Of a stretch of DNA of 20,449 nt, positions 1-20,449 are shown in pieces. The number at the start of each line of letters is the position of its first letter. The first letter of the stretch is position 1. Source of the DNA: a virus; UHGV virus genome UHGV-0200630; one strand, given 5' to 3'. Position numbers and translations under genes: made by a program. The notes beneath the pieces were generated by a model. It worked only from the letters and a program-made list of their open reading frames with translations, ran no database searches and was not told where the DNA came from.

Positions 1-78
1 TGGTTTGGCGATTGATCAGATCGCACAATCCGGGCTGAGTTCCCTTTCAGTGATCTACTATTCCGCGCAGCTATTTAG
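1..78. repeat. Left terminal inverted repeat (78 bp), exact reverse complement of 20371-20448
   Basis: Read directly: reverse complement of 20371-20448 equals 1-78 base for base; identity breaks at position 79. Contains three GATC sites (14-17, 19-22, 52-55) and begins 5'-TG. Confidence 0.95.
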
Positions 79-325
79 CAAGAGTTGAACGAACAGTGGT
101 ATAAAGTTTCTGAACTTGAGCGATTTCTTTAAAAACAGGAGTTCCGTCTTCGTGTTGAATACAATTCAGAATCATTCGGTCGTTACGTTCTTCTGTGTTT
201 TCATTTTTGAAATAGAATTCACCGAATTCAGATACGGTCATAGGACGAGCATAGAATTTAAAGCCGTTGATTTCTACTGGTTCGCGAGAAGGCGAAAGAC
301 TTGCTAACATTTCATCGAAATTCAT
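71..325 (-). CDS. Hypothetical protein (84 aa)
   Basis: ORF with ATG at 325-323 and AAGGGA-like SD 8-10 nt upstream; stop codon TAG lies inside the left ITR. No recognisable family. Confidence 0.5.
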   Translation of the reverse strand: MNFDEMLASLSPSREPVEINGFKFYARPMTVSEFGEFYFKNENTEERNDRMILNCIQHEDGTPVFKEIAQVQKLYTTVRSTLAK

Positions 326-361
326 TTTTGTTTCCCTTTGTTGAGTTTTCTTTTATTTATG

Positions 362-388
362 AAAAAGGGAGCGCGAGGCTCCCTTTTG
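362..388 (-). terminator. Intrinsic terminator (bidirectional-looking) after the 105-aa gene
   Basis: Stem GGGAGC (367-372) / GCTCCC (378-383) with 5-nt loop, flanked by A5 (362-366) and TTTTG (384-388); on the minus strand the hairpin is followed by U5. Same stem sequence as the terminator at 18769-18791. Confidence 0.6.
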
Positions 389-706
389 TTATTTCCATTG
401 AAAGAAATATCCGTACATTCTGAAACCTTTGTGGATATATTCAATCATTCCTAAGTTCTTCGCTTCGGTCTCAAAAAATGGACCTTGCAGTCGAACTGTC
501 TGTCCTAATTTGAAATGACAATTAGGTTTTTTCTTCTGTGTTGAAACAATAAAAACGTTCTTATCGTTGAACAGATATTTTTTAATTCGCTTATCTTTGA
601 TGTGTTCGCAACCGTAAGGAACAGTCATTGACTCGGGATTAATCTCGTTAACGTAGATGTCGGCAAGTTCGTCTAATCTGTAAGTATCAAAATCGTGAAT
701 GTTCAT
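389..706 (-). CDS. Hypothetical protein (105 aa)
   Basis: ATG at 706-704 preceded by AAGGAGA with 5-nt spacer; ends directly at the terminator. No recognisable family. Confidence 0.6.
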   Translation of the reverse strand: MNIHDFDTYRLDELADIYVNEINPESMTVPYGCEHIKDKRIKKYLFNDKNVFIVSTQKKKPNCHFKLGQTVRLQGPFFETEAKNLGMIEYIHKGFRMYGYFFQWK

Positions 707-723
707 TTGTTCTCCTTTTGACT

Positions 724-1266
724 TTATTTAGTACCCGCAACACGCTTAACGGTTTTGAATATATCGTCAGAGATTTGATTCCATGAACCCAGAGTTTTTC
801 TTCTGTGTTGATTTTTCTTGAATACAGCAATTAAACGACGGTCTTGCTTTTTAACGTTAGTTTTAATGAGGATCGTTCGAGTTACGCCATCTTTTTTTTG
901 CTTGACAGCTTCAAGATTATTTCTTGATTTCAAGTTAGGAATGTTACCGAATTTGTTCTTTGAACCTCTTACACCAGTTGGAACAAACTTGTTAATTCCT
1001 TTGTTATCATCAATTAACGGAGCAAGATAATCAGCCTGCTTGTCTTTGATGAATATTCTATTTCGTGACCCGTTCTGATCGTATCTGAAACTGAAACCTA
1101 CTGCGTTCTTAGTGAAATTAACTGGTCCATCGACTCGTCTGTTGATTTTTCTTTGCAACTCAACAGAAGCGAGTTTAGACGCTTTGGTTACTTTCTTACT
1201 GAACACGTCAGATTCTTTGATTCGCCATTTTTCAAGGTCTTTCATAACATCTTTTGCTTTTGCCAT
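724..1266 (-). CDS. Highly basic Lys/Arg-rich protein (180 aa), possible DNA-binding or virion-associated protein
   Basis: ATG at 1266-1264 with AGGAG SD (7-nt spacer); TAATG overlap with upstream gene stop (1266-1268). Very high K/R content throughout. Function not recognised. Confidence 0.6.
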   Translation of the reverse strand: MAKAKDVMKDLEKWRIKESDVFSKKVTKASKLASVELQRKINRRVDGPVNFTKNAVGFSFRYDQNGSRNRIFIKDKQADYLAPLIDDNKGINKFVPTGVRGSKNKFGNIPNLKSRNNLEAVKQKKDGVTRTILIKTNVKKQDRRLIAVFKKNQHRRKTLGSWNQISDDIFKTVKRVAGTK

Positions 1267-1463
1267 TAGTTCACTCCTGACATCAGAAGCGTCCCAAATG
1301 TTTTTATCTGTTCTTCGCTGATAAGAATCATTTTAGGTGCTTTAATATCGAAAGCTTGCAGAACAGGAACAGCAACAGTGTTATAAGTTATAGTAACGAG
1401 AAATAGAACAATAAGATAATCTTTAGCGTGTTTTGCCAATGCTTGGAGATATTTCATTTTCAT
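1266..1463 (-). CDS. Small single-pass membrane protein (65 aa), possible lysis-associated (holin-like) protein
   Basis: ATG at 1463-1461 with AGGTGA SD; one hydrophobic helix (DYLIVLFLVTITYNTVAVPVL); overlaps the 3' end of the endonuclease VII gene by 41 nt. Real coding status uncertain. Confidence 0.4.
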   Translation of the reverse strand: MKMKYLQALAKHAKDYLIVLFLVTITYNTVAVPVLQAFDIKAPKMILISEEQIKTFGTLLMSGVN

Positions 1464-1899
1464 ATTTCACCTTTATTTGGTTTGAGTAGACTTTTTCAAG
1501 CTCCTTTTTCGTTTTAAGGTTTGAACCTGTAATAGCTTTCATCTCAGAAAGATTTTTTCGAGAGAACGCCTTCTTTAAATCAGGAATAAGTTGTGGATGC
1601 GTAGGATTGTCTGAGTAGTCTTTTTCAAGATACTGAACAAGATTCTTCAAAAACTCGATGTAGTCAATTTTCCCATCGAGACCCGAACGTTTAAACTGAT
1701 GTTTTATTCTGCCCTCTAGGACGTTTGCTTGAGCGATTAATAATCCTCTGCATCTGCCTGCGTTAGAGCCTGTTAATATATGGTCATGGTCAAGATGGGC
1801 TTTATTAACTTCATGAATCTTTATGCCAGTTAAAGCACAAAGACCTTTTTGCTTTTGAAAGAGTTCTTGCTTATAAATCGGAATCTCTTTTCTTTTCAT
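1423..1899 (-). CDS. Endonuclease VII-like Holliday junction / branched-DNA resolvase (T4 gp49 family), 158 aa
   Basis: Translation contains HLDHDH, GLL..N..EG, KHQFKRSGL.GK.DY.EFL.NL..YL..DY and FSR...SEM, matching T4 endonuclease VII as I recall it. ATGA overlap with upstream gene; AAGAGGA SD. Confidence 0.85.
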   Translation of the reverse strand: MKRKEIPIYKQELFQKQKGLCALTGIKIHEVNKAHLDHDHILTGSNAGRCRGLLIAQANVLEGRIKHQFKRSGLDGKIDYIEFLKNLVQYLEKDYSDNPTHPQLIPDLKKAFSRKNLSEMKAITGSNLKTKKELEKVYSNQIKVKYENEISPSIGKTR

Positions 1900-2180
1900 T
1901 TTCCTCTTAGAACTGCTAGGTCGATATCTAGCTTTGCTGTTCTTCCTTCTAAATTCTTCAAATCAGATTTGACCTCTCGAAATTCATCCTGTTGTCGTGT
2001 TATATCGCTTATAAGCGAAGCATCTTTTGCGTCATTAACGGCTATGCTTTTTTCGATGTCTGAGAAACGTTTCTCAAGGTCAATTCGTTTTTCATTGTTT
2101 GATTTAATTTCGGCATAAACCCAAGCCAAGAAACCTCCTAGAGCACCCAAGATGGAAATGATCAGTGCTATATCGACCAT
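1896..2180 (-). CDS. Membrane-anchored coiled-coil protein (94 aa), candidate i-spanin-like or other lysis/envelope protein
   Basis: N-terminal TM segment (IALIISILGALGGFLAWVYA) followed by charged, heptad-like region; ATG at 2180 with AAGGAGA SD (6-nt spacer). Confidence 0.6.
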   Translation of the reverse strand: MVDIALIISILGALGGFLAWVYAEIKSNNEKRIDLEKRFSDIEKSIAVNDAKDASLISDITRQQDEFREVKSDLKNLEGRTAKLDIDLAVLRGK

Positions 2181-2225
2181 CTTGAATCTCCTTTTTAAAA
2201 GACCTCCTTGTCTTTATTTAGAACG

Positions 2226-5200
2226 TTATTGTTGTTTACTGATAAAGTAAACTGCTCTTGCTGCGGTCGCATGATTCAAGTCAGCACCGTAACTCAAATC
2301 AACAGCTTGTCCCGCATAGATAATGCCTGTACCACCGTTTGAACCACTCATTGCACTGGTAACTGTTCTTACGATTTCTTGACCGTTCGACATATTAATC
2401 CATGCAGTTCCGTAGCCCCAAGCACCACCGGAATAAGTTCTGCCTGAAATCGAAAGGTTTGGAATAGAAATTACTCTGTTCCAGTTAACAGCAGGAATAT
2501 GAACTGTTGTCCACGGATCTATATGACCCATTTTGATAACGTCACCTTCAATTCTGTCAGCGTATACAGTTCCTGTGAAATAACCTGAACCGCCTCTGAT
2601 TTCACCTGCGAAATAACCAGAATCTGCTTGAATGTTACCTCTGATATTAACGTTTTGGAAAGAAGCCCAACCGTCTTTTCTGATTGTCCAACCTTGAGTA
2701 CCACCGGAAGGGAACCAGTTATCAGAAGATATTTCATAAGCAATCTGTGCTGAACCGATCTGAGCATTACCAATTTTCGCAGTAGTAATCGCACCGTTTT
2801 CAATCTTCGCGTTGTTAATAGCACCGTTTTGAATCTTAGCGTTGTTAATAGAAGCATCTGCAATCTGTGCTGAACCGATAGAAGCATTACGAATCATTGC
2901 AGAATCCATATAAACTCTGTTATCAGCGACCATAAACGGAGCAACAGCACCCGCAGGAGTATTGTTATTCGTTATAGCGATTTTATCAGCGTTAAAAACA
3001 ATACTAGACTGTTTTGAACCGTCAGGATTCTTATTAGCCAGCATACTGATACCAGCAACAACACCGTCGGCATTAGTCTGAACTGCCCATTTGCTATTAA
3101 TCGTTCCTGTTAAGTCGTCAACGCTTGCTTTTGATTCTTGACTAACTGTTGCAATAGCTGTGTTTGTTTCAGCTTTCAATTGATTAATTGAACTTGCGGT
3201 TGCTTGTCTATCATCAGCTTGAGTTTTTTCAACTTTCGTAATAGCCGAGTTAAGTTTTCCATCAAAGTTAGATTCTTGAATACTGATAGCCTGATTGATA
3301 GCGCCATTAGTTTCATTAGTAATCTGAGTATGAAGTTCGGTGTTTTTCGTCGTGATAGTCTGATTTAATTCAGTAGTAACTTTTTGCTCGGATGCTGTAA
3401 CTTTCGTATCAGTGTATTTGTTAGCGAGGTCTAATGCTTCATCGATAGCACCATCAACACGTTTATCCAAATCAAGCAAATCGTTTAACTGTTCTTTCAT
3501 ATCGTCAGTCCACGGAATATCCCATTTCATATCGATAAACTTCGATTCTGACCAAGTAATCTGGTCTTGTCCGAATACGTCATACCAAGCTGAACGAACA
3601 TAGAATTGACCATCTTCTAATGGAAAATTATCTAAGAACGGACTTGAACTTGAATAAACGTGAACAATTTCATTAAAACTCTGGTCTTTCGCAATATGAA
3701 CGATTGTGCCTTTGAAGTCAGGAACTTCAGGCTTATTATCGCGTGGGTCATTCCAAGAGCACATCAGCATTCCAGGACCATTCGAAGCTGTGAAACCTTG
3801 AATAGCAGGAGCTTGATTGTTCTTAACAGTAATAACAGCAGGATCTGACTTCATACCAGCGTGACCGTATGCAGTAACAGAAACTTTCAATTCACGACTC
3901 AGACCATTACCCAAGTTCATATTAAAGTCATATACAAAACCTAAGTCTTTAGTCTTGTAAATTACAGGACGCTGACCTTCAATTTTGATTTCGTAATATT
4001 GAAAAACTTCACCGAATGTCTGTAACGTGTCGTCAACATAGAATTTCTGTGCGCTCTGGTCGTCCCAGGCGAATTCAAATTGAGTCTTGTTAGTGGTGTA
4101 TTGATTTTCAACTGCGTTCACTAGGTGCAGTCCTGTAACGACTGGTAAGTTATACATAACCTCAGGGTTAACGTTATTGACATAAACCCAATCTGAACGA
4201 TACACAACACCAGAAGCACAAACACGAATATCAAATTTCTGATTAGGGTCAAGACTCATAATCAAGAAATAATCGCCTGATGTGAAACCTGCTTGAATCC
4301 AAGAGTTCTTACCAGCAAGACTATACTGAATATAATAACCTGCGCGATTATAATCAGGTTCAGACGTCCATTGAACTTTCAGAGTTCTTCCTAAAGCTGT
4401 TTCAGCAACTGCTTTAACTGTCAGATTCTTAGGAGCAATCAGAACAGATTTATTAGGAATGTTGCTTCCTGTGTTATCAGGGTCTTTCGCGTAGTCAAGA
4501 TTGGTATAAACTTCTTCGATATATTCAGAAGCAGTAATAGTAACGATACCAGCAGCACCTTTATTCATCGAACGATCGATATTAGTAATACGCCATAATG
4601 AATTCACAAGTTCCAGTTCAGAGAAATTAACTCTGATAACATCCCAGACCTGTGCGGTATAAGCATCAGCAGTTGAAAAACTAATAACTTGCTTTAACAG
4701 AGATTTGTTACGTTCGATTGAAGCAATTTTATCCAACTGAGATTTTGATTTCACGAATCTGTAACTGATATCTTTAGCGATAATACGTTTATCTTTCGCG
4801 ATTGTTCCATCATTTGTTACGTCAGACGGATAACGCAGAACTTGGTCAGAATAGTCAATCGACGGATCTTGATATTTCACGTTCAGAGTATTGTAATAAT
4901 TCTCAGAACCGCCATCGTTTAAGCTAACAGTACCAGCGTTAATATTATCTTCGTTGAAGTCATATTGAACAACATCAGGTCCATCGATTCTGCATGTTAC
5001 TTTACCGAAAGTCTCTGTGATAATACCGTTAAATGCACCTGCAAGCTGAGTTAAGTTTTCTTTGAATGAACCGTTCGGGTCAGTTGCACCATCAGAAAAT
5101 AAACTGTTCAGTTTTGCATATCGAGCAGCTTCTTTAAAACTATCAAGGTCGATTTTATCAATCTGAATTCCAAGACCGTATCTATCATTTGTTAGATAAT

Positions 5201-5915
5201 CAACAATCTGACTCGGACCGTTGTTCGAGGAAACGCGTTCTCCTGTGTTCAGATCTGTAATCAAACGTCCTCTAACGTCAACAGATACTTGACTGTTAGG
5301 TTGCAGGATATCAGCTTGGTTTTGAAGGTCTGAGTTACGTTTGCGCATAACAACACAACAAGCAGCGATGTTATTACCAGTAGCAGAATCAGGCCAGCCA
5401 GCATCTGAATTTCCTAGATATTTCTGAGCAAGAGTAAAAACGTGACCGTATGGCTTACCAGTTGAGAATTCAACTTCAACATATTGCTGATATTCAGCAG
5501 CGATTGAACCTTTCGGAAGAACACCGTCTTTATAAACGCCATCAAGTAAGATTTTCTGATTATCCATATAAAGGTTTTTGAAGCTATCAACTTCACCTTC
5601 ACAGATTGCAAAGATCTGAACCAAATATGTCGTATCAACGCCAACAGCTTTCCAAACGTTAATCGTACCTGTACGCTGTTCACCATAGATAATAGGAATA
5701 ACACTTGATGGATCTGACGTTGTTCCTAATGTCGTTGCTGTGTCTGTGCTGTTAAATCGGGGAACGTTCTGCGCCATCTGAGTTGACATCAAAGCAGAAA
5801 CAGCAGCAACAGCGACACCAATACCAATTGCCAAAGCAAGAGCAGCACCCGCAGCGTAAGCAGCAGCAGCCGCGGAAGCACCTGCGATAATTGCACCAAT
5901 AGCTACAATAGCCAT
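2226..5915 (-). CDS. Tail tip / host specificity protein, lambda gpJ-like (1229 aa) with atypical hydrophobic N-terminus
   Basis: Strong SD AGGAGA (6-nt spacer). Middle and C-terminal regions (e.g. FMVADNRVYMDSAMIRN..., GTVYADRIEGDVIK) resemble lambda J as I recall it, including fibronectin-III-like stretches. Residues 1-45 are an Ala/Gly/Ile-rich hydrophobic segment. Confidence 0.85.
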   Translation of the reverse strand: MAIVAIGAIIAGASAAAAAYAAGAALALAIGIGVAVAAVSALMSTQMAQNVPRFNSTDTATTLGTTSDPSSVIPIIYGEQRTGTINVWKAVGVDTTYLVQIFAICEGEVDSFKNLYMDNQKILLDGVYKDGVLPKGSIAAEYQQYVEVEFSTGKPYGHVFTLAQKYLGNSDAGWPDSATGNNIAACCVVMRKRNSDLQNQADILQPNSQVSVDVRGRLITDLNTGERVSSNNGPSQIVDYLTNDRYGLGIQIDKIDLDSFKEAARYAKLNSLFSDGATDPNGSFKENLTQLAGAFNGIITETFGKVTCRIDGPDVVQYDFNEDNINAGTVSLNDGGSENYYNTLNVKYQDPSIDYSDQVLRYPSDVTNDGTIAKDKRIIAKDISYRFVKSKSQLDKIASIERNKSLLKQVISFSTADAYTAQVWDVIRVNFSELELVNSLWRITNIDRSMNKGAAGIVTITASEYIEEVYTNLDYAKDPDNTGSNIPNKSVLIAPKNLTVKAVAETALGRTLKVQWTSEPDYNRAGYYIQYSLAGKNSWIQAGFTSGDYFLIMSLDPNQKFDIRVCASGVVYRSDWVYVNNVNPEVMYNLPVVTGLHLVNAVENQYTTNKTQFEFAWDDQSAQKFYVDDTLQTFGEVFQYYEIKIEGQRPVIYKTKDLGFVYDFNMNLGNGLSRELKVSVTAYGHAGMKSDPAVITVKNNQAPAIQGFTASNGPGMLMCSWNDPRDNKPEVPDFKGTIVHIAKDQSFNEIVHVYSSSSPFLDNFPLEDGQFYVRSAWYDVFGQDQITWSESKFIDMKWDIPWTDDMKEQLNDLLDLDKRVDGAIDEALDLANKYTDTKVTASEQKVTTELNQTITTKNTELHTQITNETNGAINQAISIQESNFDGKLNSAITKVEKTQADDRQATASSINQLKAETNTAIATVSQESKASVDDLTGTINSKWAVQTNADGVVAGISMLANKNPDGSKQSSIVFNADKIAITNNNTPAGAVAPFMVADNRVYMDSAMIRNASIGSAQIADASINNAKIQNGAINNAKIENGAITTAKIGNAQIGSAQIAYEISSDNWFPSGGTQGWTIRKDGWASFQNVNIRGNIQADSGYFAGEIRGGSGYFTGTVYADRIEGDVIKMGHIDPWTTVHIPAVNWNRVISIPNLSISGRTYSGGAWGYGTAWINMSNGQEIVRTVTSAMSGSNGGTGIIYAGQAVDLSYGADLNHATAARAVYFISKQQ

Positions 5916-6331
5916 TATTTTCTCCTGTTAAAAATTAATTCAAAATTAAAATCGTTGACGTTTATCAGTTGATATTTATTTTCATGTTCAACTAATGCTC
6001 TATTATTAAAAACGATAGATGCAACGTAATAGACACGGTTTTTATGTTTTTTCTTAATTAAGATAACCGAGCCTGTTTCTATAGTTTCTGATTTCTCAAG
6101 ATGCGTTTCACACGCTTCGAGAACGTTATTAAAACCAGTTAGCTCTTTGCAAATCTTGAGACCTTCAGGAATACTCGTGTATTTGTCTTTTAATTTGTCT
6201 GTGTATTCAGTAGCACAAACAAGGTCGATATATTCAGCAACAAGGATATTACAGTCGTTTTGACCGAAAACGTGTTGCTGATTGATATAGCGGTTAAGTA
6301 ATTTTGATAAGTCAGCTTGAAATTTAAACAT
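5915..6331 (-). CDS. Putative tail tip assembly protein with lambda gpK-like NlpC/P60 cysteine peptidase domain (138 aa)
   Basis: Immediately upstream of the J-like gene with TAATG coupling; GAGGTG SD. Motif FGQNDCNILVAEY resembles the Cys-containing motif of NlpC/P60 (lambda K C-terminal domain); later HxN/His candidates. Functional call is tentative. Confidence 0.55.
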   Translation of the reverse strand: MFKFQADLSKLLNRYINQQHVFGQNDCNILVAEYIDLVCATEYTDKLKDKYTSIPEGLKICKELTGFNNVLEACETHLEKSETIETGSVILIKKKHKNRVYYVASIVFNNRALVEHENKYQLINVNDFNFELIFNRRK

Positions 6332-6362
6332 GTTTCACCTCTGACTTTATTTAGAGCCAAAA

Positions 6363-6386
6363 AAAGACCCCTTGCGGAGTCTTTTT
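6363..6386. terminator. Bidirectional intrinsic terminator-like hairpin
   Basis: A-tract, imperfect GC stem (GACCCC/GGAGTC with TTGC loop), T5 on plus strand and U7 on minus strand; sits directly 3' of the 158-aa gene. Confidence 0.5.
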
Positions 6387-6388
6387 AA

Positions 6389-6865
6389 TTAATCACTTGA
6401 TGTCAAATCAACAACACCAGAAACAACAGGACCACCATCAACACTCAGTGTCATTGTCAGACCTTGAACTTCTGATTCACCGCCATTATGAACAGCGCTT
6501 GACAAGAAGCCGTTATAAACTTTTGCAACACCCAGTTTTTTAGTAGCATCAATCCAATAAACGATTTTAAACTGACCACGTTTACCATCTTCCGCAAGCT
6601 TAATCAGAACATCATGAACGCTTTCTGGAATATAGTTAACGGTCAAGTCGATATCAGGAACAGAGCCACGACCAACCAGTTTACGGGAGTATTTGTGAGA
6701 GAAGTTAGGAGCTGTAATAACTTCGCGTTCAATACCCGTAGAAGGGAATGCACCAGTTTCAGGAATTTCAACAAACTTTTCTGAATTCAGATCGGTGTTT
6801 GCAATTTCTGAGTTATAGAACACACTGACGTAAGAGCCAGCAAAAATATCAAATTTGTCTGCCAT
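6389..6865 (-). CDS. Putative abundant virion structural protein (158 aa), possibly tail tube/distal tail-like
   Basis: Isolated between two hairpins (6904-6926 and 6363-6386), suggesting separate high expression; AGGAAA SD. Gly/Val/Ser-rich sequence that I read as beta-rich. Family not recognised from sequence alone. Confidence 0.6.
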   Translation of the reverse strand: MADKFDIFAGSYVSVFYNSEIANTDLNSEKFVEIPETGAFPSTGIEREVITAPNFSHKYSRKLVGRGSVPDIDLTVNYIPESVHDVLIKLAEDGKRGQFKIVYWIDATKKLGVAKVYNGFLSSAVHNGGESEVQGLTMTLSVDGGPVVSGVVDLTSSD

Positions 6866-6903
6866 TTTTAATTTCCTATTTGAGTTAATATAGTTTATTT
6901 AGC

Positions 6904-6926
6904 AAAGGGGATTTCTCCCCTTTTTG
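6904..6926 (+). terminator. Hairpin with T-tract on plus strand (antisense to operon) between fiber gene and 158-aa gene
   Basis: GGGGA (6907-6911) / TCCCC (6916-6920), loop TTTC, followed by TTTTTG on plus strand; only UUUGC on minus strand. Confidence 0.4.
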
Positions 6927-11803: not shown

Positions 11804-11823
11804 CTGATTATTCAGCAGTTTCA

Positions 11824-11853: not shown

Positions 11854-11854
11854 C

Positions 11855-12067
11855 TTAGGCTTGTTTTTCGTGCAGGAACAGACGATCATCAGCACAAACT
11901 TTCCAATCGATATCAGCCCAAACGCGAGGAACGATAGCGCCTTTGTTACGGTAAGTTGTGTCGTCTAGGTCAAGAGCAAGACCTTCCCACTCAGCTACGG
12001 TTACAGCAGAGAAGTCACCAGAGATAACCTGACCTTCTTTAACAAGACCGGAACCGATAAACATCAT
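11855..12067 (-). CDS. Small capsid-associated ORF (70 aa) overlapping the capsid gene 3' end in the +1 frame; separate protein or frameshift extension
   Basis: ATGATG at 12067-12062 lies 29 nt inside the capsid ORF in the +1 frame; only a weak GGGCGGA SD. Shares the terminator at 11778-11803 with the capsid gene. Confidence 0.45.
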   Translation of the reverse strand: MMFIGSGLVKEGQVISGDFSAVTVAEWEGLALDLDDTTYRNKGAIVPRVWADIDWKVCADDRLFLHEKQA

Positions 12068-13760: not shown

Positions 13761-13776
13761 TACCAGTCCTCTGTTG

Positions 13777-13806
13777 GAGCGTCTTTCGACGCTCTTTGTT
13801 TTTCTG
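13777..13806 (+). terminator. Hairpin with plus-strand T-tract between portal and capsid genes
   Basis: 7-bp stem GAGCGTC/GACGCTC with TTTC loop (GAAA on the mRNA strand), followed by TTTGTTTTTCTG on the plus strand; no U-tract on the minus strand. May be an antisense terminator or mRNA processing/stability element. Confidence 0.4.
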
Positions 13807-13819
13807 AATGTATTTAGTG

Positions 13820-15370
13820 TTATTCCACCGAGTTATCCGAATTAATTTCAGCAACTTCCACTTGAGCATCAGCCGTTAATGCAGCAGGTGCAGCAGCAAC
13901 TTTAATTTGATTATCGTATTTCGGAACATAACGAGTTCTTTCTTGTTCAACCTGAGCAAATACAATATCCGGGTCTTCACCGCGAGCAATAATAATATCA
14001 GAAGCAGATTTGAATCCGTTTTCAACATCAAAAATATCCTTCTGAGTATCTTTAATTGGGTCGATACTTTGCCATTGAGGATATGTCCAAACAGTCTGAC
14101 GAAGAACTGAAGGAATAGTTGTCATTTTCAAATTAACGGTTTCTCTGATAATTGACCATTGTAACCAACGTTCAAAAATAACATCAAAAACCTGTTCTTT
14201 AATATTACGCTGAACTGATTTAAACATTACGCGTTGTGCAAGATCACCGAAGCGGGCAGCAGAATAGTTAATATTTGCTGTGTCACCTTTCCAACCTTGT
14301 TTGTAAAAACCGTAACCCATAGCAAGCAGGTCTTCCAGACGATTCGTGAAGTTCATAAAGTCGTCACCGCCCTGAGTAGAGCTAAACTGCTTTATATCGT
14401 AACCAGCAGGAAGTTTATGAATTGTCCCTGATTCAAAGTTTTGAATAACATCAGGAGATTCTTCAATGCCTTCGTTATCGCTATCAATTTCGATATTATC
14501 TTGACCGTCTTTGTCTTGAGTGATGAAACCCATAGAGCTTGCTGCGGCGCGTTTCTGAATCAACGTTGCTTTTGTGAAAGCATCATATTGGTTCATAACA
14601 TCAATATTCGCTACACATTCAGGAATGCCTCTGCGTTGATCAGGGAACAATTCTCTGTAATAGTGAATAATATTTTCAGCGTCGATACCTTCAGATTTAC
14701 CAGATGAAGTCTGTGTTGCTTTGCTTATTGTGTTAAACCAGTAACGAACTGGAACATCATCGTTATTATATTCGATACCATCAAGAACATAACCGTTGTC
14801 GGAGGTTTCTCTGTCGCCAAATTTACAGCGTGAAGCTTCGATAATTTCAAGCTTAAATTCAGTATCAGATTCGTGAATACGAATAAAAACCTCGCCGTCA
14901 ACAAATCTTGAACGTTCAACGAGTTCTTGAAATCTGCGCCAGTTCATTCTTTCATTTTTACTGAAACGTTTTGCTGAACTTGACCAATAGCTGAACTGGT
15001 CCATAATCATAGAGTTCAGTTTCTTGCTTGGCTTTCCGTTTGTTCCCAGAATACGCAATTGTGGGTTAATACCTTCACCGATAACGTTATCAACTTGATA
15101 TTGAACAGCACGTTTACCAACTGGTGTATTAATCGAAAGAGTTCGAGACATATTACGAATGCCATCGGCATAAGTTCGAATCTCGTTATTAATCGTTGCA
15201 GTCGTAATCAGGTTCTCTTGAAAGTCGCCATCTAAACGGTCAGTTCGAGGACCAAGAATACGCTGTAACTGTGAGCCATATGCTTGCTCGTTATCAATTA
15301 CCAGTTTCTGTTTCTGTTTACGTGTTTTCGGTTCTGCTTTTTTAAATGTGAAAAAATCTCTAATACTCAT
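13820..15370 (-). CDS. Portal protein, lambda gpB-like (516 aa)
   Basis: Size and position (after terminase and W-like gene, before protease-capsid); ATGA start-stop overlap with upstream gene. Portal identity is by synteny and size plus general sequence character; exact family needs HMM confirmation. Confidence 0.8.
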   Translation of the reverse strand: MSIRDFFTFKKAEPKTRKQKQKLVIDNEQAYGSQLQRILGPRTDRLDGDFQENLITTATINNEIRTYADGIRNMSRTLSINTPVGKRAVQYQVDNVIGEGINPQLRILGTNGKPSKKLNSMIMDQFSYWSSSAKRFSKNERMNWRRFQELVERSRFVDGEVFIRIHESDTEFKLEIIEASRCKFGDRETSDNGYVLDGIEYNNDDVPVRYWFNTISKATQTSSGKSEGIDAENIIHYYRELFPDQRRGIPECVANIDVMNQYDAFTKATLIQKRAAASSMGFITQDKDGQDNIEIDSDNEGIEESPDVIQNFESGTIHKLPAGYDIKQFSSTQGGDDFMNFTNRLEDLLAMGYGFYKQGWKGDTANINYSAARFGDLAQRVMFKSVQRNIKEQVFDVIFERWLQWSIIRETVNLKMTTIPSVLRQTVWTYPQWQSIDPIKDTQKDIFDVENGFKSASDIIIARGEDPDIVFAQVEQERTRYVPKYDNQIKVAAAPAALTADAQVEVAEINSDNSVE

Positions 15371-15861
15371 GATGGATTCGTGAACCTCGCTTTAATAGTA
15401 ACAATCGGAGATTTACCGTTTGCCATTTGTTCTGACTTAATCAGATTTGCTAAGTTAGCTAAAAGTCGTTTTCGAGCCATAAGCAGCGAATCAAGCGTTT
15501 CATAAACGAATGATTTACCGTTAATACTCATTTGTTGAATAGCTTCTTCGTTACTTGTCAGACGATACTGAATAACTGTATCGATATCGTTAATCATTTC
15601 TCTGAGTTGTTCTCTTTTCGTTTTTGAAACGAATGGTGATTTCACTTTGATAATGCTGTTACTGATAAGCGCACCTTCATAGAGAACAACAACAGAAAAA
15701 GTTCCTTCGATAAAATCTGATGTGTCCACCGAGATATTCGCTGGACAATCAGTTTGAGAAAACAATTTAGTTTCAGTTGAGCCTATGGAGACTGTTGCAC
15801 CTTCAGGATTATAAACAGCGAGTTTTTCACCGATGTAAATTTCTGAATTTGATTTTTGCAT
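15367..15861 (-). CDS. Head-tail joining protein with gpW-like C-terminal domain (164 aa)
   Basis: Located between large terminase and portal, as gpW is in lambda. C-terminal ~60 aa (EQLREMINDIDTVIQYRL...GKSFVYETLDSLLMARKRLLANLANL) resemble the gpW fold pattern; extra ~90-aa N-terminal domain. AAGGAGA SD. Confidence 0.6.
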   Translation of the reverse strand: MQKSNSEIYIGEKLAVYNPEGATVSIGSTETKLFSQTDCPANISVDTSDFIEGTFSVVVLYEGALISNSIIKVKSPFVSKTKREQLREMINDIDTVIQYRLTSNEEAIQQMSINGKSFVYETLDSLLMARKRLLANLANLIKSEQMANGKSPIVTIKARFTNPS

Positions 15862-15881
15862 TGAGTTCTCCTTTCTTATAT

Positions 15882-17765
15882 TTATAATCCGAAACCACGA
15901 GGCTTATTAACTGGTCTGTTTCGTTTGATAATGTTTCGACGAGGTTCATGAGTTTGAATAACAGGAGAATTTGTTTCGTTTTGTTCTTCTGGCATTTCAA
16001 TATCAGATTTAGCAGCGAGTTTCCTCCACTCGTGAAATTTGATTTTCTCTAGAACTTGCAGACGCGCGCAATAACCGTAGTTAAAGCAGTCAAGACCTTC
16101 GTTACGAACACCGCCTTGTTTAATAACCCATCTAACAGTATTACCAGAGCGTTTTAATTCTTCGGACATAAGCTGTTCGCAGTAATCATCTGGAACATCA
16201 TCAGAGATTTCGACTCTGACTGGTGTATTTCCAGATTTCACGCTTCTGTTTAGCAGTTCACGAACTAAGTTTTTTCCTTGGTTTACACCAATCATATAAA
16301 GTTCATAACCACCGGTTTTCGTGATTTTCGTTGGAACATAAGGGGCATCAACAGAGCTGGCACCTTTAATTGCTTTCAGGTTTGTCCACTGAGAGCAGAA
16401 ACGATAGATTGTTTTAGTTGCTCGACCGTTTGAGCTATCGACGTTCACCCACGCTAAAGGAACCTTTCTTCCCAAAGCTGTTCTGAACGGTGCTTTAACG
16501 TATGCAAGAAGTTCTTTATAAGCAGGGGAATCGATAACCTCAGCGTTCATTGTCATAAAGCTACGATGTGCAAGAATATAAACGGTTCGTTCGTTGTGAC
16601 CCATCAAGGTTACTTCTAAACGGTCTTGCTGTTGGTCAACCCCAGCGGTTAAAAACAACGTGTCTTCTGGTATATTGCTGATGCCGATATTCGTCTTGAG
16701 TGTTTCTAATTTACTAACCTCAATGTCTTCGTTTAAATCATCAAACGGTAGACCAAGAACAGTGTTATAAAACGTTGACAAGCTGAACGTTTGCCATGCT
16801 TGCTTATAGTCTTCAACAACTGATTTGATAGAACTCATTGGGCTGTATAAACGACTTACGTGGAATCCAGCAATTCGACTTTCAGGTTGATGAATAATCC
16901 ATTCACCTTGTTTAATTGCTCGTGCTCGGTCGCCTTCAGAGAAAGCGTGATGACATTCAGGACATTCAATTCTGGCAGAGTTAGGATCAGGTAATGATTT
17001 ACCATCGATTTTTACCCAGTCGAATTTGATATTCTCCCACGTCAGTTCGTGCTTATGACCACATGTAGGACAGGGAACATGATACTTGCGCTTGTCGGAT
17101 GCTTCATACTGCGTGTGGATAGCACCGTATTTACTTGTAGGCGTCGAGCTAATGAAAACACGAGCGTCTTCACCGAACGTCGTAGCACGTTGTTCCGCGA
17201 TGATAATCGGGTTGCCTTCTTCTGTGTCTGTTTCAACTGCGTCAACTTCATCAAGCAACATCAGCGGAAGAGTTTTACCGCGTAAGTGAGAAGGGCTATT
17301 GAGCGACATGAAATACCAAAAGCCTCCAGCACGTAGCTGAATTTGACTGGTGTTATTCACTGCGTTTCTGTCGTTCTTGTCGGTGACGATTCGTTGCATT
17401 TCTTCCGATTCGTCAATCATTGGGCGAATCTTGCCTGATAGCCATTGAGTCGTCTCTTTACCGGTTGACTGCAAGACACCAGCGTTACCGGGATCAGTAG
17501 CAGACTTATAGAACAGAATTCCGTTCAAGATGGTTGTCTTGCCAATCTGGGCAGAAGTCTCGAAGACGATTTTCTTCTTACGTTCTTTAATGACGTCAAT
17601 CATGCCTTTCTGAAACTCAAACAGTTTCATCGGCTGCCCTGTATAAGGACCATCAGGGAATTTCAGGTACTGTTCGACCCACTCGGACGGAGTGTAGTCA
17701 GGAGGTGGCATTAAAAAGCGCTTTGCATTCTGTAAGATACTTTTCAGTTTATTTGAGTTTTTCAT
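15882..17765 (-). CDS. Terminase large subunit, lambda GpA family (627 aa)
   Basis: Walker A-like FETSAQIGKTT; zinc-ribbon-like CPTCGH...ECPECHH; LTAGVDQQQDRLEV and NEGLDCFNYGY match lambda gpA segments as I recall them. First gene of the leftward operon. Confidence 0.9.
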   Translation of the reverse strand: MKNSNKLKSILQNAKRFLMPPPDYTPSEWVEQYLKFPDGPYTGQPMKLFEFQKGMIDVIKERKKKIVFETSAQIGKTTILNGILFYKSATDPGNAGVLQSTGKETTQWLSGKIRPMIDESEEMQRIVTDKNDRNAVNNTSQIQLRAGGFWYFMSLNSPSHLRGKTLPLMLLDEVDAVETDTEEGNPIIIAEQRATTFGEDARVFISSTPTSKYGAIHTQYEASDKRKYHVPCPTCGHKHELTWENIKFDWVKIDGKSLPDPNSARIECPECHHAFSEGDRARAIKQGEWIIHQPESRIAGFHVSRLYSPMSSIKSVVEDYKQAWQTFSLSTFYNTVLGLPFDDLNEDIEVSKLETLKTNIGISNIPEDTLFLTAGVDQQQDRLEVTLMGHNERTVYILAHRSFMTMNAEVIDSPAYKELLAYVKAPFRTALGRKVPLAWVNVDSSNGRATKTIYRFCSQWTNLKAIKGASSVDAPYVPTKITKTGGYELYMIGVNQGKNLVRELLNRSVKSGNTPVRVEISDDVPDDYCEQLMSEELKRSGNTVRWVIKQGGVRNEGLDCFNYGYCARLQVLEKIKFHEWRKLAAKSDIEMPEEQNETNSPVIQTHEPRRNIIKRNRPVNKPRGFGL

Positions 17766-17910
17766 AATCAGCCCTAAGTGGATGAACCCAAAATGGATTT
17801 CATTTCTCTGTCTGTATTTATGAAAACCTCCATAAAATTATTTCTAAGAGTTCTTGCACCTGGATATCCGCCTGTTAAAGTCTGTTCCAACAAAACACAG
17901 GAGAACGACA
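17766..17910. promoter_or_regulatory. Divergent intergenic control region between terminase operon (leftward) and HTH gene (rightward)
   Basis: 145-bp AT-rich non-coding gap between divergent start codons; contains TAAAAT (17833-17838) and other -10-like hexamers, but no pair I can confidently assign. Confidence 0.4.
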
Positions 17911-18345
17911 ATGAAAACTGAACTGACTGTTGAAAACCGAATTGCTTCTGAATTAAACGCTGGTACTGATATGTCAGAGAGTAAGCTTGCTGAAAAATAC
18001 GATGTTCCTCGTTCTATTGTTCGTCGTGTTAAAGCTAACATCGAGGAATATACAGTTGTTGAAGAAGTTAAAGCTGAAAATACGGTTGAAGTTGTCGATG
18101 CTGTTGAAGCACAACGAATCGTGAATCAGGCTTTCGGATTCGATAACATCGAAAAACTTCTTGCTAGCAAATCGGCTAATAAAAAACCATCTGCGATTAG
18201 CATGATTATTTTTAAACGTACAGAGGGGGATTTTGAGTTATTCAAAAAACAGATGTCAGACAAAACTGCCGCGTATCAGAGGGATCAGTTTCTTCGCTGT
18301 GTGAATAGCACTAAAGGAGAAATGAGTGAAACTGAGAATGCCTAA
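17911..18345 (+). CDS. Helix-turn-helix DNA-binding protein (144 aa), candidate early regulator or terminase small subunit-like protein
   Basis: ATG at 17911 preceded by AGGAGA (6-nt spacer); the ORF-track start at 17854 has no SD. N-terminal region (IASELNAGTDMSESKLAEKYDVPRSIVRRV) is HTH-like. Confidence 0.65.
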   Translation: MKTELTVENRIASELNAGTDMSESKLAEKYDVPRSIVRRVKANIEEYTVVEEVKAENTVEVVDAVEAQRIVNQAFGFDNIEKLLASKSANKKPSAISMIIFKRTEGDFELFKKQMSDKTAAYQRDQFLRCVNSTKGEMSETENA

Positions 18346-18583
18346 CGAATGGAGGCGATTTTTTAAATGTATAATAAATGCAAGTTTGTAGCTAAATTAA
18401 TTACACTAGATTTAAAATTGCAATATTAAATAGGAAGCAAAGTGAGGAAGTTCAGAATTAAGGAACTATTTCATACCTGCTAGTTTAGAGAGCCGACTAT
18501 TCATCGGATACTTATTTGATTGAAAGAAAAATTGAACAAGTGATATCATTCGGTTATTATTTTTTAGCAACAAAGGAGAAAGC

Positions 18584-18763
18584 ATGATTGCTAATGTGGT
18601 TTATAAAAACGGTGATGTTAAGACCGAAGAGTTAACAGTTGACGATGCCGCTGTTCGCTTAAAAACAGACTCAGACGTTCAAGCGATTGAATTTTTCGAA
18701 AGTGGATTAAACACTCTGCTTGAGAAAAAACTTGAACAAGCATTAGTGCTTGGTCTGAAATGA
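18584..18763 (+). CDS. Small hypothetical protein (59 aa)
   Basis: ATG at 18584 preceded by AAAGGAGAAAGC (SD with 5-6-nt spacer); followed 5 nt later by a strong terminator. Below the 60-aa cutoff of the ORF track. Confidence 0.5.
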   Translation: MIANVVYKNGDVKTEELTVDDAAVRLKTDSDVQAIEFFESGLNTLLEKKLEQALVLGLK

Positions 18764-18768
18764 CAAAA

Positions 18769-18791
18769 GGGAGCTTAGTGCTCCCTTTTTT
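18769..18791 (+). terminator. Intrinsic terminator
   Basis: Stem GGGAGC (18769-18774) / GCTCCC (18780-18785), loop TTAGT, followed by T6 (18786-18791). Confidence 0.8.
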
Positions 18792-19164
18792 ATTGAATTT
18801 CAAATGAGTAGATTGTAAACCACAGATACTGGAGGCATCTTTGGGGCGCAAGGAATCAAATAGTTGAGAACTTGATTACTCAGTTCTTTAGAACGATCTG
18901 CAAACAGCAGGGCGTACTTCCTGCGAAGCTGAAAGCGTAGAGTCAAAAGCAATAAGGTCGATAACGAAGCAGGAAGCATCAGGTGAACTTGATAACAGGG
19001 AATTGACTTGGAGTATCATTAGGTCAGTAGAAGCAGGGAGAAGCGAGGAGGGATGATGTAGCAGTCAATCATTACTATCATCAAAGATAGGGCTTGCCCG
19101 TTCGACGTAGCGATAGCGAAGGAGAACTCATTAACGTTATTTCAATTAATTATCGATCGTTATG

Positions 19165-19193
19165 TTTATTGATTGTCAGACGAACAGTATAAT
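19165..19193 (+). promoter_or_regulatory. Candidate sigma70-like promoter (TTTATT-N17-TATAAT)
   Basis: Perfect -10 TATAAT at 19188-19193, weak -35 TTTATT at 19165-19170 with 17-bp spacer. Would direct rightward transcription through the mini-hairpin cluster. Confidence 0.25.
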
Positions 19194-19249
19194 GCAGTTA
19201 TCCAGTAATCATTATTATCCAGATCTGAAAAATAATATTGTGAGCGTAG

Positions 19250-19400
19250 CGAACGCGCGAAGCGCTAATAATCTTTATCTAGAAACATCTAATCAGTAGC
19301 TAGTAATCAAGTTCGATAGTGTTATCTGTCGCGCTTCGCGCTAATGTTTATCAATTAGGGCTTCGCCCGCGCTTCGCGCAATCTGCTCGCTTCGCTATGT
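19250..19400. repeat. Cluster of GCGAAGC / GCTTCGC mini-hairpin motifs
   Basis: Read directly: gcGCGAAGCgc at 19257-19267; gcGCTTCGCgc at 19331-19341; ggGCTTCGCcc and gcGCTTCGCgc at 19358-19379; GCTTCGC at about 19390-19396. Additional GCGAAGC at 18923-18929. Confidence 0.75.
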
Positions 19401-19498
19401 TTTCCAGGTTTTGTACTGCTTCTATATCCTTCCAGTTCATCTTTATCCAATTGTTCTTATAGGGCGATTTTTTCTAGGGTCCATGCACTTCTCCGAGT

Positions 19499-19542
19499 CG
19501 CATCGATGCGTTATCGATGCGTTTTGATGTGCATCAATGCAC
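19499..19542. repeat. Operator-like array: 12-bp palindrome, 2 exact tandem 11-bp repeats, 14-bp inverted repeat
   Basis: CGCATCGATGCG palindrome 19499-19510; ATCGATGCGTT at 19502-19512 and again at 19513-19523; GTGCAT-CA-ATGCAC at 19529-19542. Confidence 0.8.
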
Positions 19543-19728
19543 CTGCTTTTCACTAAATTATTTTTCGGACTTTGTTTACACTTTCGGTGAACTATATAAA
19601 TATTAGTATGAACACAGAGAGTTTCTTCTTCCTCGTTATTTTCTCTCGTTTGTTTACTACTGACTTTATCCGTCATAAAATAAGATATAAGCAATTAGCT
19701 TAGTTCATTTAAAAATTCCTTAAGTTTA

Positions 19729-19754
19729 AAGCACTCTTCGGAGTGCTTATTTTT
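19729..19754 (+). terminator. Intrinsic terminator / attenuator upstream of the right-end genes
   Basis: 8-bp stem AAGCACTC (19729-19736) / GAGTGCTT (19741-19748) with TTCG loop, followed by ATTTTT. Confidence 0.75.
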
Positions 19755-19778
19755 CAATTCAATAAAAAAGGCAACCCC

Positions 19779-19937
19779 ATGAAATTTATACCTAACAAAT
19801 TCGAAATTGAATCTCGCTTAGACTCTGGTGAGACATTTCAGCAAATTGCAGAATCTAAACAAATGAATAAAGCAACGATGTATAATGCTTGCAAAAAACG
19901 TAATATCAGAACTCAACCAATCAATAAAGGCAAATAA
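19779..19937 (+). CDS. Small helix-turn-helix protein (52 aa)
   Basis: ATG at 19779 with weak AAGG SD 8 nt upstream; the ORF-track start at 19743 is a GTG inside the terminator hairpin. SGETFQQIAESKQMNKATMYNACKK is HTH-like. Confidence 0.5.
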   Translation: MKFIPNKFEIESRLDSGETFQQIAESKQMNKATMYNACKKRNIRTQPINKGK

Positions 19938-20391
19938 ATTGAATTTCAAATTTGCAGTCTTCGAAAATCTAGACAGAACAGTTAAAGCAAGCCTGAACAG
20001 AAATATTATCAAAGTTAATAGAATGACCAATAACAAAAACAGCCTGAAAGCTCTTGTTAAAGCTATAGATATTCATCGTAATGTTCGAGCTAAGATGTTA
20101 CAGAAGATTGAAAATGCTGTGACTGTAAAAAATATGCATAGCTTCGAAATCGGTACGACCGAAGTTAATAATCTGCCTGCAATCGTTGCTTATACAACCG
20201 ATAATGCTGTTATCGTTGCTTGTGAAATTAACGGTAAAAAGAACTCGTGGAAAGCTTTCTGTTCAGATCTAAGAATGCAGAAGATCAAAGACACCGAGCA
20301 GTTTGTTCAGATGTATACTGGTGAATTTATTGAAATCATCGAAAGTATTGAATTTCCGACTGAGCAGAGACTAAATAGCTGCGCGGAATAG
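19885..20391 (+). CDS. Hypothetical protein (up to 168 aa; start ambiguous: ATG 19885, TTG 19939 or ATG 20023)
   Basis: Long ORF in the +1 frame relative to the 52-aa HTH ORF, overlapping it. None of the candidate starts has a strong SD. Stop codon TAG at 20389-20391 lies inside the right ITR. Family not recognised. Confidence 0.45.
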   Translation: MLAKNVISELNQSIKANKLNFKFAVFENLDRTVKASLNRNIIKVNRMTNNKNSLKALVKAIDIHRNVRAKMLQKIENAVTVKNMHSFEIGTTEVNNLPAIVAYTTDNAVIVACEINGKKNSWKAFCSDLRMQKIKDTEQFVQMYTGEFIEIIESIEFPTEQRLNSCAE

Positions 20392-20448
20392 TAGATCACT
20401 GAAAGGGAACTCAGCCCGGATTGTGCGATCTGATCAATCGCCAAACCA
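20371..20448. repeat. Right terminal inverted repeat (78 bp), reverse complement of 1-78
   Basis: Read directly; one extra base (a, 20449) beyond the repeat at the right end. Confidence 0.95.
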
Positions 20449-20449
20449 A

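What the first reader, a model, noticed from the sequence alone, without database searches (positions are those of the whole stretch)
1..20449. Perfect 78-bp terminal inverted repeats bound a virion-gene element
Positions 1-78 are the exact reverse complement of 20371-20448. The termini start 5'-TG and end CA-3' (plus one extra A). Inverted-repeat ends are unusual for a genome with a lambda GpA-type terminase, which is classically associated with cos ends. Possible explanations are a linear replicon with covalently closed hairpin telomeres (the joined ends would form a 156-bp perfect palindrome), protein-primed linear DNA, transposon-like terminal repeats, or an inverted-chimera assembly artifact.
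Basis: partly seen in the sequence, partly recalled or inferred. Interest (0 to 1): 0.8.

Follow-up and report, generated by a model that had tools for sequence, protein, structure and literature searches.

The report
Contig cut inside two IS copies
The "terminal inverted repeats" are the first ~78 bases of two oppositely oriented copies of a common E. coli insertion sequence (ISEc33) that landed in a chromosomal prophage. The contig stops there because the assembler cannot cross a repeated element, so this is ordinary and not a genome end.

Summary
Positions 1-78 are the exact reverse complement of 20371-20448, and base 20449 extends the match to the insertion sequence (IS).

The interpretation as replicon ends does not hold.
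- Both arms are 100% identical to the transposase-proximal (IRL) end of ISEc33, an IS630-family element. The IS terminus faces inward and the IS body runs off the contig.
- The 78-mer occurs in 1143 of 5426 complete E. coli genomes.
- The interior (76-20376) is ~100% identical to the chromosomes of E. coli MS 115-1 and 2021CK-01361. There the sequence continues past both junctions as part of a ~34-kb siphovirus-like prophage between ybiT and ldtB.
- Both empty sites read CTAG, the classic IS630 target with TA duplication.
- The insertions truncate a tail assembly chaperone gene (84 vs 102 aa) and a 246-aa gene (168 aa left).
- One metagenome contig reads from the left junction through the complete 1.15-kb IS and its DDE transposase.
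- The same junctions in other assemblies carry arms of 28-29 or 50-55 nt. Arm length therefore varies between assemblies and is not a fixed biological end.
- No protelomerase, protein-primed polymerase or transposase is encoded in the window.

Verdict: known IS, truncated prophage contig, low interest. It is a caution for calling viral genomes "complete" from inverted terminal repeats.

The parts
1..78 (-). Left arm. Positions 1-75 are the first 75 nt of ISEc33, counted from its IRL terminus at position 75 and reading leftwards out of the contig. Positions 76-77 are the TA target duplication and 78 is the G of the CTAG target.
   Evidence: 78/78 identity to the annotated ISEc33 in L014. L021 continues from this junction through the whole IS. 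The empty site in MS 115-1 reads ...caactcttgCTAGtgctg.
20371..20449 (+). Right arm. Positions 20371-20373 are CTA of the CTAG target (TA duplicated). Positions 20374-20449 are the first 76 nt of a second ISEc33 copy, IRL end, reading rightwards out of the contig.
   Evidence: 79/79 identity to the ISEc33 IRL end. The empty site in MS 115-1 reads ...gagcagagaCTAGatgttg. The same junction occurs in 9 contigs.
79..20370 (.). A 20.3-kb segment of a chromosomal siphovirus-like prophage: head, tail and a few early genes. It is not a self-contained element.
   Evidence: Two megablast pieces at 99.97-99.99% identity to the E. coli MS 115-1 chromosome, and 99.98-100% to 2021CK-01361.
71..325 (-). Tail assembly chaperone gene truncated by the left IS: 84 aa, against 102 aa when intact (WP_001008297.1). 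Its stop codon lies in the IS end.
   Evidence: The intact protein hits phrog_344 'tail assembly chaperone' at 1.2e-6, and weakly PF16459 (below cut-off).
19885..20391 (+). Hypothetical gene truncated by the right IS: 168 aa, against 246 aa when intact (WP_001324719.1).
   Evidence: P0013 (168 aa) differs from P0011 (246 aa) only after residue ~163.
15882..17765 (-). Terminase large subunit, lambda GpA type. It is intact here. In MS 115-1 it is interrupted by an IS3-family element. In 2021CK-01361 an ISEc68 copy sits beside its truncated remnant.
   Evidence: PF05876 at 1.5e-60 and PF20454 at 1.3e-45.
13820..15370 (-). Portal protein, lambda family.
   Evidence: PF05136 at 2.1e-60.
11855..13760 (-). 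Prohead protease (S78) fused to the major capsid protein. A 1-bp A insertion near 12059-12061 splits it here into 573 aa plus 70 aa. In MS 115-1 it is one 634-aa ORF.
   Evidence: PF04586. RefSeq annotation as a 634-aa HK97-family prohead protease. The indel is shown.
6927..10010 (-). Tail fibre with a C-terminal S74 intramolecular chaperone domain.
   Evidence: PF13884 at 2.1e-14.
6389..6865 (-). Major tail protein.
   Evidence: phrog_158 at 5.3e-16.
2226..5915 (-). Tail tip / host-specificity (gpJ-like) protein.
   Evidence: PF09327 at 2.2e-23.
1423..1899 (-). Endonuclease VII family protein.
   Evidence: PF02945 at 1.1e-10.

Best explanation
The window is a short-read contig covering 20.3 kb of a defective, chromosomally integrated siphovirus-like prophage of E. 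coli. In IS-free relatives this prophage lies between ybiT and ldtB. Two copies of the IS630-family element ISEc33 (~1.15 kb) inserted independently, in opposite orientation, at two CTAG sites with TA duplication. One sits in the tail assembly chaperone gene and one in a 246-aa hypothetical gene. Both have their transposase-proximal (IRL) end facing the enclosed segment. ISEc33 is multi-copy in the host genome, so the de Bruijn assembler could enter each copy only for about one k-mer length before the graph branched. The contig therefore ends 78-79 nt into each copy, and because the copies are inverted those ends look like a perfect terminal inverted repeat. Shown directly: arm identity to ISEc33, CTAG empty sites, gene truncation, continuation of the left arm into a full IS, and arm length that differs between assemblies. 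Inferred: a full IS body beyond the right arm, and the specific k value and assembler.
For: (1) Both arms match the IRL end of an annotated ISEc33 at 78/78 and 79/79. IRL and IRR of this IS share only the terminal ~11-14 nt, so both arms are IRL ends of two separate copies. The IS terminus sits at the inner edge of each arm.
(2) The 78-mer occurs in 1143 of 5426 complete E. coli genomes, up to 10 places per genome, on chromosomes and plasmids. It also occurs in 12 IMG/VR contigs, always preceded by CTA and, in four of the five complete copies, followed by TAG. At least six of those contigs end inside the IS.
(3) The interior is ~100% identical to two complete E. coli chromosomes in which the sequence runs on past both junctions. 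Both empty sites read CTAG.
(4) L021 reads from the chaperone ORF through IRL, a 343-aa HTH/DDE_3 transposase and IRR, a complete 1159-nt IS with flanking target bases.
(5) The same two junctions occur in 11 and 9 contigs from several samples. Their arms are 28-29 nt (Logan), 50-55 nt (ENA scaffolds) and 78-79 nt (window).
(6) The tape measure, distal tail, lysozyme and serine recombinase genes of the same prophage lie outside the window.
(7) No protelomerase, PolB, terminal protein or transposase was found in the window.
Against: No contig in hand crosses the right-hand IS, so its body is inferred from 79 nt of IRL-specific sequence. The only contig that crosses the left IS (L021) exits into a glycosyltransferase gene between gnd and ugd, about 1.36 Mb away in strain 2021CK-01361, and not into the rest of the chaperone gene. 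The present-day outer context is therefore unresolved. It could be a chimeric path through the repeat, an IS-mediated inversion or a relocation. Arm lengths are close to, but not exactly, standard k values (78/79 rather than 77 or 79).
Confidence: 0.92

Rival explanations
1. The two inverted ISEc33 copies and the enclosed 20.3 kb form a functional composite transposon (~22.6 kb). It has moved as a unit, carrying a phage virion module to a new site such as the glycosyltransferase gene between gnd and ugd.
For: L021 joins the outer (IRR) end of the left IS to a CTAG site in that glycosyltransferase gene and not to the remainder of the chaperone gene. ISEc33 can form such units: in L014 two inverted copies enclosing a 408-bp gene fragment sit in one CTAG site of an amino-acid permease gene, with TA on both sides.
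Against: Both inner junctions are simple insertions at CTAG sites within the native, collinear prophage sequence. That is what two independent insertions predict. L021 is a 1.5-kb low-coverage metagenome scaffold through a multi-copy repeat. A chimeric path or an IS-IS recombination explains it equally well. No second outer junction was found (all returned nothing). Even if this rival were true, the 78-nt arms would still be assembly truncations of IS copies.
Confidence: 0.06
2. An inverted-chimera or fold-back assembly artefact. Only one real IS junction exists, and the assembler reused the same repeat edge at the other end.
For: Perfect terminal inverted repeats of about k-mer length are a known signature of graph artefacts (general knowledge).
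Against: Each junction is found separately in short contigs that hold only that junction (L020 and L021 for the left, L023 and L024 for the right). These come from different samples and assemblers. Each junction lies at its own CTAG site and has an IS-free allele in complete genomes.
Confidence: 0.01
3. A genuine linear replicon whose 78-bp ITRs are physical ends, either protein-primed like phi29 or PRD1, or hairpin telomeres like N15.
For: Only the existence of the perfect ITR.
Against: The arms are IS ends with inward-facing termini. They continue into the IS body. Arm length differs by assembly. The interior is an integrated chromosomal prophage. No PolB, terminal protein or protelomerase is present. 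Essential tail genes such as the tape measure gene lie outside the window.
Confidence: 0.005

Closest known systems
ISEc33 (IS630 family; Tc1/mariner-like DDE transposon of Enterobacteriaceae)
   Same: The arms are 100% identical to its IRL end. The insertions are at CTAG with TA duplication. The continuing sequence encodes the 343-aa HTH/DDE_3 transposase and the element is ~1.15 kb long. RefSeq names the element, and it is reported on resistance plasmids (PMC4785139).
   Different: Nothing differs in the element itself. Only 75-76 nt of each copy lie inside the window.
ITR-flagged 'complete' viral contigs in metagenome catalogues (the CheckV-type rule of a terminal inverted repeat of at least 20 bp)
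   Same: The contig satisfies the ITR rule. Its truncated 168-aa ORF (P0013) is in NCBI nr as DAM16424.1, 'MAG TPA: hypothetical protein [Caudoviricetes sp.]'. The CheckV paper reports that only 33.2% of ITR contigs with a completeness estimate reached high quality, and notes that ITRs are a hallmark of transposons (PMC8116208).
   Different: Here the cause is identified exactly: two flanking copies of a named IS, with tail, lysis and integration genes missing from the contig.
Defective lambdoid-style siphovirus prophage of E. coli MS 115-1 (ybiT-ldtB island)
   Same: The window interior is the same element at ~100% identity: GpA terminase, lambda-family portal, S78 protease-capsid fusion, major tail protein, gpJ-like tip and S74 tail fibre.
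   Different: Different IS elements hit different genes in each genome. MS 115-1 has an IS3-family element in terL, 2021CK-01361 has two ISEc68 copies, and the window lineage has two ISEc33 copies plus a capsid-gene frameshift.
phi29 / PRD1 (protein-primed) and N15 (hairpin telomere) linear phage genomes
   Same: Only the formal presence of inverted repeats at the ends of the sequence.
   Different: There are no physical ends, no PolB or terminal protein, and no protelomerase. The element is chromosomally integrated.

Membership tests
ISEc33 / IS630 family | Nucleotide identity of the arms to a reference copy of the element | tested here: met
   78/78 and 79/79 to the IRL end of the RefSeq-annotated ISEc33 in NZ_AP027470.1.
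ISEc33 / IS630 family | TA target-site duplication, typically within CTAG | tested here: met
   Both empty sites in MS 115-1 read CTAG. A third site, in the glycosyltransferase gene, is also CTAG. All 12 IMG/VR copies are preceded by CTA, and four of the five complete copies are followed by TAG.
ISEc33 / IS630 family | Single DDE (DDE_3) transposase with N-terminal HTH domains, in an element of ~1.1-1.2 kb with short terminal IRs | tested here: met
   In L021 the left arm continues into a 343-aa product with PF13358 DDE_3 and HTH_23/29/32. The IS plus flanking target bases is 1159 nt. IRL and IRR share the terminal 11-14 nt. This lies outside the window. The body of the right-hand copy is inferred.
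Protein-primed ITR phages (phi29-like, PRD1-like) | The ITRs are the physical termini of the genome | tested here: not met
   Sequence continues beyond the arm into the IS. Arms are 28-29, 50-55 or 78-79 nt depending on the assembly.
Protein-primed ITR phages (phi29-like, PRD1-like) | Family B DNA polymerase and terminal protein encoded | tested here: not met
   There are no such Pfam or PHROG hits among the window's main predicted genes, about 20 of 63 listed ORFs. Those that were identified are virion, endonuclease VII or regulator-like.
Hairpin-telomere phages (N15, PY54, phiKO2) | Protelomerase and a telomere-resolution palindrome at the joined ends | tested here: not met
   No protelomerase hit. 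The ends are IS interiors, not termini. The element is integrated in the chromosome.
Composite transposon | Two copies of one IS flanking a passenger segment | tested here: met
   IRL ends of two inverted ISEc33 copies flank 20.3 kb. The left copy is shown complete. The right copy is inferred.
Composite transposon | Movement as a unit: one target-site duplication at the outer ends, and the passenger found outside its native context | tested here: inconclusive
   The inner junctions are in native prophage context, which argues for independent insertions. One outer flank (L021) is non-native, but it comes from a short metagenome scaffold through a repeat. Searches for the other outer junctions returned nothing.
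Lambda-like cos-packaging phage (GpA terminase) | GpA ATPase and GpA nuclease domains in the large terminase | tested here: met
   PF05876 at 1.5e-60 and PF20454 at 1.3e-45.
Lambda-like cos-packaging phage (GpA terminase) | A cos site with cohesive ends | not tested
   No cos site was sought. It cannot be established without virion DNA.

The most novel reading that the evidence does not exclude
The pair of inverted ISEc33 copies has turned the head-and-tail gene block of a decaying prophage into a ~22.6-kb composite transposon that has actually relocated. L021 suggests a landing site in a glycosyltransferase gene between gnd and ugd, that is, IS-mediated transposition of a phage virion module within the chromosome.
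Probability: 0.05. Interest if true: 0.35.

Novelty: already known. Interest (0 to 1): 0.06.

Why it matters
This has no bearing on phage replication biology. There is no new telomere, no new replicon type and no conflict with cos-type packaging. The practical value is as a worked example of a false "complete genome with ITRs". Two inverted copies of a common IS flanking part of a prophage produce a contig that passes the terminal-inverted-repeat rule used by viral catalogues. Protein evidence shows that this same IS-truncated gene is already in NCBI nr as a 'Caudoviricetes sp.' MAG protein. Screening terminal repeats against IS libraries, and checking that the repeat terminus faces outward, would remove such cases.

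Tried and rejected
- The phage collection gave no close relative of the window, only a 76.6% match over the capsid gene in the Escherichia phage DCP80 record, plus short terminator matches.
- The window's left junction is not present in IMG/VR.
- I looked for the complementary outer junctions. These were IRR joined to the 3' remainder of the chaperone gene, IRR joined to the 3' remainder of the 246-aa gene, and the glycosyltransferase upstream half joined to an IS end. IMG/VR and JGI metagenome contigs returned nothing. The window's own right junction was also absent from JGI metagenome contigs. Whether the rest of the prophage still adjoins the two IS copies therefore could not be settled.
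- I searched homologues and cluster members of the 246-aa protein, hoping for a C-terminal fragment ORF that would lead to contigs on the far side of the right IS. Only N-terminal or full-length forms exist.
- I considered that the arms might be the IRL and IRR of a single element, which would make the window a transposon. This is rejected. IRL and IRR diverge after 11-14 nt, both arms are IRL, and the termini face inward.
- I considered an invertible-segment reading (crossover sites of a Hin/Gin-type system). This is rejected because the repeats are IS ends at 100% identity to ISEc33.
- I ran no further search on the tape measure protein to find outer-context contigs, because the main verdict does not depend on it.
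Full report
**Observation.** The window begins with 78 nt that are the exact reverse complement of positions 20371-20448. Base 20449 is one extra A. A perfect 78-nt inverted repeat cannot arise by chance in 20 kb. By my arithmetic the expectation is about 1e-39. The arms are 48.7% GC and the interior is 39.0%.

**What the arms are.** The 78-mer occurs in 1143 of 5426 complete E. coli genomes, with up to 10 places per genome, on chromosomes and plasmids. It also occurs exactly in 12 IMG/VR contigs.
- In NZ_AP027470.1 it is the outermost sequence of a RefSeq-annotated 'IS630-like element ISEc33', immediately upstream of the transposase gene.
- Read in the IS's own orientation, the element starts (CTA)AATAGCTGCGCGGAATAG... 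and ends ...CCTAATACC-complement GCGCAGCTATT(TAG).
- The two ends of the IS share only the terminal 11-14 nt and then diverge.
- Both window arms match the left, transposase-proximal (IRL) end over their full 78 and 79 nt.
- They are therefore the same end of two separate IS copies in opposite orientation.
- The IS terminus lies at the inner edge of each arm (positions 75/76 and 20373/20374), and the IS body points out of the contig. A transposon's own terminal repeats would have the opposite polarity.

**What lies between the arms.** Positions 76-20376 match the chromosomes of E. coli MS 115-1 (NZ_CP146665.1) and 2021CK-01361 (NZ_CP107720.1) at 99.97-100% identity. The only differences are other IS elements in those genomes, two 1-bp indels and one mismatch.
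- In both genomes the sequence continues past both junctions.
- The uninterrupted sites read ...caactcttgCTAGtgctg... on the left and ...gagcagagaCTAGatgttg... on the right.
- In the window each site reads ...CTA followed by AATAGCTGCG.... This is the IS630-family signature: insertion into CTAG with duplication of TA.
- All 12 IMG/VR copies are preceded by CTA, and four of the five complete copies are followed by TAG.
- The left insertion truncates a 102-aa protein to 84 aa. The intact protein matches tail assembly chaperones (phrog_344, 1.2e-6).
- The right insertion truncates a 246-aa hypothetical protein to 168 aa.

**Direct evidence that the arms continue into an IS.** The exact 84-aa truncated product is encoded on 11 contigs, and the 168-aa product on 9, from several ENA and Logan samples.
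- One contig, L021 (1496 bp), runs from the chaperone ORF across the junction, through a 343-aa HTH/DDE_3 transposase gene, and out of the IRR end.
- Its IS differs from the reference copy at one position in 1159.
- In the other contigs the IS-derived end is 28-29 nt (Logan assemblies) or 50-55 nt (ENA metagenome scaffolds), against 78-79 nt in the window.
- A 20487-bp version also exists.
- A physical genome end would have one fixed length. An end whose length differs from one assembly to the next is the mark of a de Bruijn graph breaking where a unique path enters a repeat.
- From memory, Logan uses k=31 and metaSPAdes ends at k=55. The window's arms fit k of about 77-79. I infer this correspondence. 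It was not tested.

**The real element.** In MS 115-1 the region is a ~34-kb, ~39% GC island between ybiT and ldtB.
- Its genes, in order, are a large serine recombinase, a DUF2163 tail protein, a lysozyme-like glycoside hydrolase, a TIR-domain gene, a retron Ec67-family RT, the 246-aa gene, GpA terminase, lambda-family portal, S78 protease-capsid fusion, a tail fibre with an S74 chaperone domain, major tail protein, gpJ-like tip, endonuclease VII, tail assembly chaperone and a 799-aa tape measure protein.
- The window therefore lacks the tape measure, distal tail, lysis and integration genes. It is a fragment and not a bounded 'virion-gene element'.
- No protelomerase, family B polymerase, terminal protein or transposase is encoded in it.
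- Every copy examined is decaying. MS 115-1 has an IS3-family element in terL. 2021CK-01361 has two ISEc68 copies and a deletion. The window lineage has two ISEc33 copies plus a 1-bp insertion that splits the 634-aa protease-capsid ORF into 573 and 70 aa.

**Rivals.**
- Hairpin telomeres and protein-primed ends are excluded by the points above.
- A fold-back chimera is excluded because each junction is seen on its own in short contigs from different samples, and each has its own CTAG empty site.
- The one reading I cannot exclude is that the IS pair plus passenger has moved as a composite transposon.
- In its favour, L021 leaves the IRR end into a CTAG site of a glycosyltransferase gene between gnd and ugd and not into the rest of the chaperone gene.
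- Also in its favour, ISEc33 demonstrably forms such units. In L014 two inverted copies around a 408-bp gene fragment occupy one CTAG site of a permease gene.
- Against it, a 1.5-kb scaffold through a multi-copy repeat is weak evidence, and a chimeric path or IS-IS recombination predicts the same junction.
- Also against it, the inner junctions are in native context, as independent insertions predict.
- My searches for the other outer junctions found nothing.
- I put this rival at about 5-6%. Even if true, the 78-nt 'ITRs' would still be truncated IS copies.

**Comparison with what is known.** ISEc33 is a named IS630-family element that turns up regularly in Enterobacteriaceae and on resistance plasmids (PMC4785139; one search lists 81 papers). 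All the family features I could test are met. [quoted passage not shown] It also reports that only 33.2% of ITR contigs with a completeness estimate reached high quality (PMC8116208). The truncated 168-aa protein of this window is in NCBI nr as a 'MAG TPA ... Caudoviricetes sp.' protein (DAM16424.1). This IS-bounded fragment therefore appears already to have entered a viral catalogue.

**Verdict.** The telomere and replicon-end interpretations are refuted. The feature is a known insertion sequence combined with an assembly break. Novelty: already known. Interest: about 0.06. Its use is as a caution about ITR-based completeness calls.

Noticed in passing
window 12055-12065 (within 11855-13760, minus strand): A 1-bp A insertion (GATAAACATC against GATAACATC in MS 115-1 and 2021CK-01361) splits the 634-aa prohead protease-major capsid fusion ORF into 573 and 70 aa. 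An ENA scaffold of the same lineage shows the same split (573 + 69 aa), so it is probably a real inactivating mutation and not a read error.
   Followed up: partly
L014 1501-4224 (NZ_AP027470.1, E. coli 15.03CC): Two inverted ISEc33 copies enclose a 408-bp fragment of an SDR oxidoreductase gene. The unit sits in a single CTAG site of an amino-acid permease gene with TA on both sides, so it is a small composite transposon built from this IS, with IRL ends facing outward.
   Followed up: partly
L021 1447-1496; L026 2990-3050: The only contig that crosses the left IS exits into a CTAG site of a beta-1,6-N-acetylglucosaminyltransferase gene between gnd and ugd, about 1.36 Mb from the prophage in 2021CK-01361. 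This is a third ISEc33 copy with a chimeric assembly path, an IS-IS inversion or a relocation. It is unresolved.
   Followed up: partly
L013 30219-34522 (MS 115-1, just right of the window's end): The same prophage island carries a retron Ec67-family RT/endonuclease gene and a TIR-domain gene between the early region and the lysozyme and DUF2163 tail genes. This looks like an anti-phage defence cargo block inside the prophage.
   Followed up: no
window 11774-11820 (minus strand): A stem-loop followed by a T run, AGAGGACTCCTTCGGGAGTCCTTTTTT, lies just after the capsid gene. It has the form of an intrinsic terminator with a TTCG loop. It is ~92% identical over 47 nt to sequences next to the soc / capsid genes of T4-like phages (YUEEL01, TOPO13, 215Ecol030PP).
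   Followed up: partly
window 359-395 and 18757-18793: A 37-nt, 86% inverted-repeat pair. Each arm is itself a GC-rich hairpin with a T run (AAAAGGGAGC...GCTCCCTTTT), so these look like two similar intrinsic terminators on opposite strands. L021 begins inside the first one.
   Followed up: no
L027 (Escherichia phage DCP80, PQ671644.1, record 1.3-14 kb): A 141-kb record classified as Straboviridae / Gaprivervirus carries, at its start, a terminase - small ORF - portal - protease/capsid module in the same order as the window. It is 76.6% identical in nucleotides over the capsid gene. This is odd for a T4-like phage and may reflect a mosaic or mis-joined record.
   Followed up: no
L016 305-3399 against window 6927-10010: In the ENA scaffold of the same lineage the 1027-aa tail fibre gene is called as two ORFs (698 + 352 aa). 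That scaffold has 11 more bases than the window somewhere between the two terminal genes, so there is further variation or decay within the lineage.
   Followed up: no
window 1423-1899 (minus strand): An endonuclease VII family gene, with a weak hit to the T4 endonuclease VII dimerisation domain, sits among the late and tail genes downstream of the tail tip gene.
   Followed up: no
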